Source: Octopus sinensis
Taxonomy: Eukaryota
Length of the DNA stretch: 64,000 nucleotides
NCBI RefSeq assembly: GCF_006345805.1
Contig: NC_043003.1
Coordinates: 46,314,001 to 46,378,000 of the forward strand
Direction of reading: 5' to 3'
Shown here: piece after piece, positions 21,862 to 40,730 of the stretch
How the letters are laid out: each line of letters begins with the position of its first letter
How positions within the stretch are numbered: the stretch's first letter is position 1
The notes under the pieces: generated by a model
The model's input: the letters and a program-made list of their open reading frames with translations, nothing else
Told to the model about the DNA's origin: nothing
The model's database searches: none
Translations under genes and position numbers: made by a program

Positions 21862-21919
21862 AGTTCTGTATCACCGTGATTTCACATTCAACTTACGTCT
21901 AATGATCGTCAGCAGAACT
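21862..21919 (-). ncRNA. Type I hammerhead ribozyme (left-arm copy)
   Basis: Reverse complement of 21973-22030. Confidence 0.8.
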
Positions 21920-21972
21920 GATTCTGAACACATCATAAATAAACTACCATTATTTATGATGTGTTCAGAATC

Positions 21973-22030
21973 AGTTCTGCTGACGATCATTAGACGTAAG
22001 TTGAATGTGAAATCACGGTGATACAGAACT
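21973..22030 (+). ncRNA. Type I hammerhead ribozyme
   Basis: AGTTCTG-CTGACGA-T-CATTAGAC-GTAA-GTTGAATG-T-GAAA-TCACGGTGA-TA-CAGAACT. 7-bp stem I, GNRA-capped stem II, palindromic stem III, AUA triplet. Confidence 0.8.
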
Positions 22031-28629: not shown

Positions 28630-28890
28630 TAATAATAATAATAATAATAATAACTAGCTGGACCCGTGAAAAATTCACGGAAAACATAAAGAATGTAAGC
28701 ATCTGTAAACAGTCAACTGGTGCCATGAGAACTGTTTTGTATATTATAACTGTCTGTCTTTATGTTCTGAGTTCAAATTCTGCCGAGTTCGACTTTGCCT
28801 TTCGTCCTTTCGCGGTCGATAAATTAAGTACCAGTTGTGTACTGGGGTCGATCTAATCAACTGTCCCCCTCCCCACAAAAATTTCAGGCC
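28410..28890. mobile_element. Two partial SINE family B copies (28410-28535 -, 28750-28890 +) with (TAA)n/(TGA)n between
   Basis: Family B core motifs. Confidence 0.75.
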
Positions 28891-28952
28891 TAGAAAGTAC
28901 ATTGTGACAGTTACAGAATATAGAAAGTAATGTAACAACAATGACTATATAA

Positions 28953-29440
28953 AGCATTAATAAATCTCCGAACAAGATATGAACAATAACCGCTCGACAA
29001 CGTAAAGTGTACTAGCCATCTGAATGTGGCTAGCCACTGGGTGTGGGGTGTTACTGACGCTTTTAGCCCCAGGAGATCGACGTCTCCAGCTGGCCTTAGA
29101 CACAATTTCAGTGCACTTGTGTTATTTGCAAAGGGAGGTCATCCTCTCTCGAAAACCAAAGTGATACATACGGACTATAGTTTCAAGGTTATTTGCAAAG
29201 GTCTCCTTAATGAAAACCGGTGTTTACCATACGTTGACGAGAGGCAAAAACCTTGAAACTATAGTCCGTATGTATCACTTAGGTTTTTCGAGGGAGGATG
29301 ACTTCCCTTTGCAAATAACACAAGGGCACTGAAATTGTGTCTAAGGCCAGCTGGAGACGTCGATCTCCTGGGGCTTAAAGCGTCAGTAACACCCCACCCC
29401 CAGTGGCTAGCCACATTCAGATGGCTAGTACACTTTACGT
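28953..29440. mobile_element. Asymmetric inverted-repeat insertion (~190-bp arms, ~60-bp spacer, 47-bp extension) with 15-bp target-site duplication
   Basis: Arms ~29000-29190/29249-29440. ACAATGACTATATAA occurs at 28938-28952 and 29441-29455. Confidence 0.88.
29228..29272 (+). ncRNA. Type I hammerhead ribozyme (C3U core variant)
   Basis: CATACG-TTGACGA-GAGG-CAAAAA-CCTT-GAAA-CTATAG-TC-CGTATG. 6-bp stem I, palindromic stem III, GUC triplet. Confidence 0.8.
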
Positions 29441-29574
29441 ACAATGACTATATAATCCAACCAAAATATCTCAGTTTCACAAACGTAAACGGAATTAGTA
29501 TTTAACCTTAAAATATATCGTACATATTCAAAGAACCTTCTTGGTTTAGTGGTACGGAACGTTGTTCTGTTATT

Positions 29575-29790
29575 CTTTTATTATTTTACTTGTTTCAGTC
29601 ATTTGACGGTGGTCATGCTGGAGCACTACCCTTTAGTTGAAGAAATTGACCCCTGGACTTATTCCCTGTAAGCCTGGTGCTTATTCTATCAGTCTCTTCT
29701 GCTGAACAGCTAAATTACAGGGACACAACCGCACCAACATCAGTTGTTATGCAATGGTGGTGGTGGGACAAACACAGACTCAAACACATA
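29575..29790 (-). mobile_element. SINE family A 3' half
   Basis: ttttacttgtttcagtcatttgacggtggtcatgctggagcac. Confidence 0.8.
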
Positions 29791-29844
29791 CATACATACA
29801 TACATACATACATACATACATACATACATACATACATACATACA

Positions 29845-29875
<31 letters not shown>

Positions 29876-30179
29876 GACAGGCTTGGTAGTGGTGTTGCTG
29901 GCTGGTGCGATTTTGTGGTTTGCTGGTATGCCGAGAGATATCCAGTGGGACCCTAACTTGTTCCCCGATCATAAATGTATAACGTAGATGTGCAATGATG
30001 ACACATCAACAAATGAGCCAGAAATTCTAACTTTAAAAAATATAGAAAGCAAAAGACAACGTTGTATTCCGAAGCCAAAAGATTGTACTTGGGGAGTACA
30101 ATTCTATCGGTCTACAAATTTTCAACCACACAACCGACACCACTCATCAATCTGCTCACGAGCATATTGGTTAGAATCT

Positions 30180-40520: not shown

Positions 40521-40596
40521 TATATATATATATAACAATGATAAATCTCAGAGCGAGTTATAAACAGTAGCGGTAACACAACGTGATGCATATATG

Positions 40597-40730
40597 CCAT
40601 TTGAATATGGCTAACCCAAAAGGGTGGATGCTACTGTAGTTTGTAGCCCCAGGGAGACACCTCCTCCCGCTGGCTATAGACACACTATCTGTGTCCTGTC
40701 AGTATTTGTGAAGGGGAGTCATCCTCCCCG
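40597..40730 (-). other. Conserved multi-hairpin domain homologous to the arms of 28953-29440
   Basis: Same order of helices with divergent loops. Strand inferred from G-U pairs and from orientation relative to the 29228 hammerhead. Confidence 0.65.

What the first reader, a model, noticed from the sequence alone, without database searches (positions are those of the whole stretch)
28938..29455. Complete insertion footprint: 15-bp TSD, inverted arms and hammerhead at the inversion junction
Seen: TSD ACAATGACTATATAA, a 47-bp extension, ~190-bp arms, and a spacer that begins with a re-used GTTATTTGCAAAGG. A full hammerhead spans the spacer and right arm; the left arm carries only its 3' half. 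Inference: target-primed insertion with a microhomology-guided template switch, giving a clean record of the mechanism.
Basis: partly seen in the sequence, partly recalled or inferred. Interest (0 to 1): 0.7.

Follow-up and report, generated by a model that had tools for sequence, protein, structure and literature searches.

The report
Head-to-head hammerhead retrozyme insertion
This is one copy of a common 353-base non-coding jumping repeat with a predicted self-cutting RNA fold, pasted back-to-back into another repeat with a 15-base duplication of the landing site, and its two different fixed ends suggest it was likely copied from both cut DNA strands by a borrowed Penelope-type enzyme, a known kind of element.

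Summary
The anatomy is real: a 15-bp TSD, inverted arms and a type I hammerhead fold (predicted cut after 29266). The insertion sits in another repeat; 19 of 19 paralogs of that repeat carry the site once and uninterrupted. The element is a 353-nt tandem monomer with at least 254 hammerhead copies: a non-LTR retrozyme with Penelope (PLE) architecture. Three readings need correcting. The 47-bp 'extension' is element sequence (the PLE tail). The 're-used' 14-mer comes mostly from a hairpin built into the monomer; the junction overlap is 2 nt. U3 is the family state (254 U3, 0 C3), not a lesion. Across 114 insertions, 64 are head-to-head; of 50 with both ends at fixed sites, 47 pair one tail end with one tail-less end. 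TSDs are 10-16 bp and breakpoints scatter. Each arm here holds sequence the other lacks, so simple fold-back fails. Best model: both nicked strands prime reverse transcription at two sites 47 nt apart, and the cDNAs are then joined. No autonomous partner was found. The scan already reported this pattern on other copies and families in this genome.

The parts
28938..28952 (+). Left copy of the 15-bp target-site duplication. Its first base (A) is private to this locus and repeated on both sides; paralogs have C.
28953..28999 (-). 47-nt PLE-type tail (monomer M1-47); outer 'T' end of the left arm
28953..29190 (-). Left arm, 238 nt: monomer M163 through M353 into M47; holds the 3' part of the hammerhead and crosses its cut site
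29189..29190 (.). Inversion junction: 2-nt overlap (TT) shared by both arms; 7 of 8 nt with one bulge
29189..29440 (+). Right arm, 252 nt: monomer M102-M353, ending at the tail-less 'N' end
29189..29201 (+). 5' strand of the monomer's own internal inverted repeat (pairs with about 29306-29318); source of the apparent 14-bp 're-use'
   Evidence: (I6)
29228..29272 (+). Type I hammerhead fold: U3 at 29234, G8 at 29239, predicted cut after C29266, palindromic loop 3 predicted to allow a dimeric helix III
   Evidence: sequence
29441..29455 (+). Right copy of the 15-bp target-site duplication
28634..29600 (.). Host repeat interrupted by the insertion (approximate extent; paralog matches run on to about 30000 in some)

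Best explanation
It is one insertion of a non-coding 353-nt tandem repeat carrying a hammerhead fold (a non-LTR retrozyme), likely pasted in by a Penelope-type enzyme borrowed in trans that likely primed reverse transcription from both nicked DNA strands. Shown: the monomer, the head-to-head layout, the two fixed outer ends 47 nt apart, the TSD and the empty paralogous sites. Inferred steps: (1) a GIY-YIG endonuclease nicks both strands of AT-rich DNA about 12-15 nt apart; (2) one 3' end primes at the tail site (M47) and the other at the tail-less site (M353), probably on one RNA held by an enzyme dimer; (3) each cDNA runs 5'-ward past the hammerhead cut site, so the template was a circle or an uncut multimer, not a cleaved linear monomer; (4) the two cDNAs stop at variable points and are joined head-to-head through a few paired bases (here TT, or 7 of 8 with a bulge), and repair fills in the TSD.
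For: Monomer wraps head-to-tail with no ORF over 62 codons from ATG. Ends: 26 of 32 head-to-head insertions are T+N in the first sample, with none T+T or N+N. In a sample picked by the hammerhead pattern alone, 21 of 32 are T+N, 2 T+T, 1 N+N and 8 have another end. Together 47 of 50 (p 3.7e-11 against 0.5; second sample alone 21 of 24, p 2.8e-4). The sister family gives 10 T+N, 1 T+T and 4 T+other among 15 inverted of 23 loci (picked with a tail-bearing query). TSDs of 10-16 bp in 23 of 24 T+N insertions outside microsatellites; the other 23 of 47 sit in TA-type repeats. 11 of 42 simple T+N insertions, this one included, have no fold-back route. Both arms cross the cut site in 22 of 47, at least one in 41 of 47. 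Arms of one insertion share non-consensus bases (38 in 5067 positions, 7.5/kb, against 3.5/kb between insertions; 0 of 5000 permutations reach it). A purified PLE enzyme nicks and extends both strands, starts at two RNA sites that bound the tail, prefers AT-rich DNA and is predicted to be a dimer (PMC11167929).
Against: No autonomous PLE with this terminal repeat was found among 30 GIY-YIG loci examined out of 147 matches. 14 of 64 inverted insertions have an end at neither site and 3 of 50 pair like ends. Shared variants show a common source subfamily, not one RNA molecule; this copy shares none between its arms, and L020 differs at subfamily sites M162-163. In vitro the start site did not differ between strands, so the pairing rule is not shown biochemically. 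7 of 31 junctions carry 2-21 inserted bases and 11 of 31 overlap by 0-1 nt. Ribozyme activity and a circular RNA were not observed.
Confidence: 0.72

Rival explanations
1. One priming event followed by self-priming (fold-back) of the cDNA, or a switch to an antisense template, made the inverted arm, as proposed for rotifer Penelope copies.
For: PMC3846280 proposes self-priming from palindromes at inverted junctions. Arms share variants. L005 joins inside the monomer's internal inverted repeat with a 19-nt overlap, as fold-back would give. This copy's right arm starts exactly at the 5' edge of that hairpin (M102).
Against: Here only the left arm has the 47-nt tail and only the right arm has M102-162, so neither strand can be a copy of itself. 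The same holds for 11 of 42 simple T+N insertions, and the tail-less arm reaches further 5' in 25 of 42. Fold-back does not explain why the second arm stops at a fixed site 47 nt from the first.
Confidence: 0.13
2. One reading: one cDNA slips back 67 nt, re-copies the 14-mer and changes strand there (two switches).
For: The 14-mer match is exact and starts at the junction. The hairpin does guide a junction in L005.
Against: 13 of the 14 bases are native to the monomer at that place in the closest copies (L002-L004), and the 14th is the left arm's own next base, so a single join explains everything. Junctions in 31 insertions scatter from M26 to M335. It does not explain the fixed T+N ends.
Confidence: 0.08
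3. It is a MITE or foldback DNA transposon with terminal inverted repeats, or two independent insertions side by side.
For: Long inverted arms and a TSD around a short non-coding body.
Against: Arms are asymmetric and vary from about 50 to 730 nt, many copies are tandem or single-orientation, TSD length varies from 10 to 16 bp, breakpoints scatter, and a single TSD flanks both arms.
Confidence: 0.03

Closest known systems
Metazoan non-LTR retrozymes (Cervera and de la Pena 2020, PMC7229834, passages read; Li, Clavereau and Pollet 2026, bioRxiv 10.64898/2026.07.22.740005, parts 1-2 of 5 and passages read)
   Same: Non-coding tandem monomer of about 350 nt (mussel units 350-390 bp), GC below 50%, one type I hammerhead per unit with a short helix III and palindromic loop, TSDs longer than 4 bp, proposed PLE origin.
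   Different: Copies seen are mostly 1-3 units and head-to-head. The core has U3 with G8 fixed. The passages read do not describe inverted layouts, tails or paired ends ('inverted' 0 hits in PMC7229834; 'tail' and 'priming' 0 hits in the preprint). Circular RNA was not tested here.
Penelope-like elements, insertion architecture (Craig et al. 2021, PMC8557442; Arkhipova et al. 2013, PMC3846280; passages read)
   Same: 5'-truncated partial tandems with an adjacent inverted copy, a tail often at one end only, TSDs (8-10 bp in the rotifer cases), microsatellite targeting, hammerhead in the terminal repeat.
   Different: No RT or GIY-YIG ORF. The tail is 47 nt against 30-40, and TSDs are 10-16 bp. 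The whole element is a terminal-repeat-sized unit.
PAc Poseidon element in vitro (Frangieh et al. 2024, PMC11167929, parts 1-2 of 4 read)
   Same: Two reverse-transcription start sites bounding the tail, nicking and extension of both strands, AT-rich targets, hammerhead cleavage not needed for insertion.
   Different: That work did not report that the two strands of one insertion take different start sites; the family here shows that pairing in 47 of 50 cases.
L1 twin priming (recalled, from no call)
   Same: Two target nicks prime two cDNAs that join head-to-head with short microhomology inside one TSD.
   Different: In L1 the second site is variable and the arms cover different parts of the RNA. 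Here both sites are fixed and the arms overlap by about 190 nt.

Membership tests
Non-LTR retrozyme | Short (150-450 nt) non-coding monomer in tandem | tested here: met
   353-nt monomer wrapping head-to-tail, up to about 3 units; longest ATG ORF 62 codons
Non-LTR retrozyme | Type I hammerhead in each unit | tested here: met
   Motif and stems in the sequence; stem I A/G variation keeps pairing; sister family keeps the fold with compensatory changes. Rfam gave no hit.
Non-LTR retrozyme | Canonical core C3-G8 | tested here: not met
   U3 with G8 in 254 of 254 exact pattern matches, 0 with C3; sister family C3 in 32 of 33. The variant is in print as a rare natural core (PMC7151607, passage).
Non-LTR retrozyme | Self-cleavage of the RNA | not testable with these tools
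   Needs an assay; a two-copy cofold pairs the palindromic helix III, a prediction only
Non-LTR retrozyme | Expressed as linear and circular RNA | tested here: inconclusive
   No run on record as RNA; four guessed-RNA contig sets hold family pieces but cannot show strand, ends or circles
Non-LTR retrozyme | TSD longer than 4 bp; no LTR, PBS or PPT | tested here: met
   10-16 bp in 23 of 24; no LTR layout in the maps. PBS and PPT were not searched for.
Penelope-like element (autonomous) | RT plus GIY-YIG ORF | tested here: not met
   No such ORF in the monomer
Penelope-like element (non-autonomous derivative) | Inverted 5'-truncated copy with a tail at one end, TSD, AT-rich target | tested here: met
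Penelope-like element (non-autonomous derivative) | Terminal repeat shared with an autonomous PLE | tested here: inconclusive
   None in 30 GIY-YIG loci examined of 147 matches; one hit was a separate sister-family insertion
MITE / foldback DNA transposon | Symmetric fixed TIRs and a fixed short TSD | tested here: not met

The most novel reading that the evidence does not exclude
Each head-to-head insertion records a single enzyme dimer holding one small circular RNA and committing its two subunits to two different start sites, one per DNA strand. The trailing RT displaces the leading cDNA, so both arms copy the same stretch. This would be a general, unpublished rule of Penelope integration that explains the one-sided tail. 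In addition, a family fixed for a U3-G8 wobble spread to hundreds of copies beside a C3 sister, giving a natural test of whether hammerhead cleavage matters for spread.
Probability: 0.5. Interest if true: 0.55.

Novelty: new member of a known kind. Interest (0 to 1): 0.3.

Why it matters
The single copy is ordinary. The family statistics matter modestly. The steps after priming in PLE integration are still unproven, and the near-strict pairing of one tail end with one tail-less end turns the often-noted one-sided tail into a quantitative prediction for the existing in vitro system. It also ties animal retrozymes to PLE enzymes through insertion footprints rather than sequence trees. The U3 family and its C3 sister are a ready pair for asking whether the ribozyme must cut. 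This scan has already noted the pairing in several families of this genome.

Tried and rejected
Rfam found no hammerhead in the window or in 29150-29330; only hairpin-type miRNA models scored. Autonomous partner: a GIY-YIG search gave 147 matches; 30 loci were examined, including 780-883-aa open frames, and none shares the monomer. The 70% hit in L168 is a sister-family copy inside a TA repeat, separate from the ORF. Allelic empty site: joints skipping 503 nt appear in 4 of 4 DNA runs, but the host repeat is multi-copy, so they cannot be assigned to this locus. RNA: no RNA holder listed; four guessed-RNA contig sets were uninformative. A strict-motif TSD scan matched only 14 insertions because tail ends vary (about M41-49), so it was replaced, whose lengths are uncertain by 1-3 nt where flank and element overlap. 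A paper on C3-G8 exchanges was not held, so the effect of a U3-G8 wobble on cleavage rests on passages of PMC7151607 and PMC3088659 and on recall that core changes usually lower activity. A search of earlier findings by sequence gave nothing. Literature searches for Penelope + twin priming + inverted (2 unrelated papers) and retrozyme + head-to-head + TSD + Penelope (no retrozyme paper with 'head-to-head') found no printed statement of the pairing rule; the library lacks most subscription journals. No supplements were read; those of PMC11167929 (Fig. S2, genomic tail ends) may bear on it. The host species was not determined; 'octopus' was my guess. Rejected: MITE, decay of the hammerhead, 14-bp re-use, simple fold-back.

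Full report
Observation. The sequence at 28938-29455 holds an exact 15-bp direct repeat at both edges, inverted arms and an exact 14-mer at 29121 and 29188. The arms align over about 197 nt with 6 substitutions and two gaps. A type I hammerhead fold reads directly from 29228-29272: stem I CATACG/CGTATG, core UUGACGA, stem II GAGG/CCTT, GAAA, one-pair stem III with a palindromic loop, GUC at 29264-29266. Rfam does not call it.

The family. The right arm found 64 matches among 40 scored candidates of 2096. Their flanks show a 353-nt monomer M that wraps head-to-tail. The left arm is M163 through M353 into M47 (28953-29190, minus strand); the right arm is M102-M353 (29189-29440). The monomer has no ORF over 62 codons; a 20-codon frame starts at M334 and runs into the tail, much as a PLE terminal repeat carries its ORF start (PMC3846280).

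The 14-mer. M102-114 and M219-231 are an inverted repeat inside every monomer. Any head-to-head copy covering both therefore shows the word twice in direct orientation. The closest copies have A before it, and the G at 29188 is the left arm's own base. The exact overlap at the junction is TT, 7 of 8 nt with a bulge. In 31 simple junctions, breakpoints scatter from M26 to M335; 24 have no inserted bases, of which 13 overlap by 2 nt or more (16.6% at random, p 2.9e-5), and 7 carry 2-21 extra bases. One copy, L005, does join within the hairpin. That this copy's right arm starts at the hairpin's edge may be chance; I cannot exclude a two-switch route.

TSD and empty site. The insertion interrupts another repeat. 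All 19 paralogs examined (of 40 matches) carry the target once, followed directly by the window's right flank; 12 of 19 match at 34 or more of 40 bases without gaps and the others carry deletions. All 19 begin the 15-mer with C, while both window copies begin with A, so a private variant was duplicated, which supports the full 15 bp. Contigs of 4 of 4 DNA runs show the 503-nt skip, but these may be paralogs; no true allele was shown.

Ends. I mapped 114 distinct insertions after dropping 29 duplicate loci: 58 from two similarity searches and 56 from the first 100 listed of 254 hammerhead-pattern matches. 64 are head-to-head; none of the first 58 is tail-to-tail, and one of the 56 has a mixed three-part layout. 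In the first set 26 of 32 pair a tail end (T) with a tail-less end (N) and 6 have another end. In the second, 21 of 32 are T+N, 2 T+T, 1 N+N and 8 other. Together 47 of 50 with two fixed ends are T+N (p 3.7e-11). Of these 47, 23 sit in TA-type repeats; 23 of the other 24 have TSDs of 10-16 bp, mostly 12-13, with 1-3 nt uncertainty. A sister family (350 nt, 247 of 363 columns identical, tail about 43-46 nt) gives 10 T+N, 1 T+T and 4 T+other among 15 inverted of 23 loci.

Mechanism. Here each arm has sequence the other lacks, so neither strand can be a fold-back copy of itself; this holds for 11 of 42 simple T+N insertions, and the tail-less arm reaches further in 25 of 42. Both arms cross the hammerhead cut site here and in 22 of 47, so the template was not a cleaved linear monomer. 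Arms of one insertion share variants more than random pairs do (7.5 against 3.5 per kb; 0 of 5000 permutations; 31 pairs), which shows a common source but not one molecule; this copy shares none and L020 differs at subfamily sites. A purified PLE enzyme nicks and extends both strands, starts at two sites that bound the tail, prefers AT-rich DNA, is predicted to be a dimer and does not need hammerhead cleavage (PMC11167929). I infer twin priming at the two sites followed by joining. The enzyme, the circle and the order of steps are not shown.

Hammerhead core. A pattern with U3 matches 254 places and the same pattern with C3 matches none; 54 of 54 motifs in the first loci have U3 and G8. The sister has C3 in 32 of 33, with a compensatory stem I change and mostly a different palindromic loop 3. 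So the fold is conserved and U3 is the state in which this family spread. A U3-G8 core is in print as a rare natural variant (PMC7151607) and U3-A8 is known from PLEs (PMC4209133, parts 1-2 read). Whether it cuts is untested.

Known kinds. The unit fits metazoan non-LTR retrozymes (PMC7229834; bioRxiv 10.64898/2026.07.22.740005) and the layout fits PLE insertions with an inverted copy and a one-sided tail (PMC8557442, PMC3846280). No autonomous partner was found in 30 of 147 GIY-YIG loci. Two searches found no printed statement of the pairing rule. Earlier notes of this scan report the same reading on other DNA in this genome; I saw them after forming mine, and they are not independent support.

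Verdict. Real, well-preserved and ordinary for its family: a new member of a known kind, interest 0.3. The value lies in the family-wide pairing rule and the U3/C3 sister pair.

Noticed in passing
window 40527-40728: A 5'-truncated minus-strand copy about 70% like the monomer, ending at its tail next to a TA repeat; by eye it matches the C3 sister family.
   Followed up: partly
L168:5436-5770 and L194-L218: Sister family with a 350-nt unit, canonical C3 hammerhead and the same tail/no-tail end pairing.
   Followed up: yes
L034, L056, L062, L110 (ends at M136-139); L050, L052, L117 (M145-155): A recurring third outer end just 5' of, or inside, the hammerhead; no TSD was found for the five scanned. 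It may mark secondary insertions; earlier notes mention a LINE that targets such repeats. Not checked.
   Followed up: no
L164-L167, L170, L172: A young family with 780-883-aa open frames ending in a GIY-YIG domain; likely autonomous PLEs, with no similarity to this monomer. L166 lies in a 5935-bp tandem duplication with a hammerhead-like motif in each copy.
   Followed up: partly
window 28634-30000: The host site is a multi-copy composite repeat (469 candidates), with further very abundant short repeats at 28750-28865 and 29570-29630.
   Followed up: partly
window 21864-22026: A near-perfect 160-bp hairpin that scores on miRNA models below their cut-offs; probably a MITE-like element.
   Followed up: no
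L016, about 30-110 bases beyond the element's 5' end: A tRNA-like sequence lies next to this copy; read by eye only.
   Followed up: no
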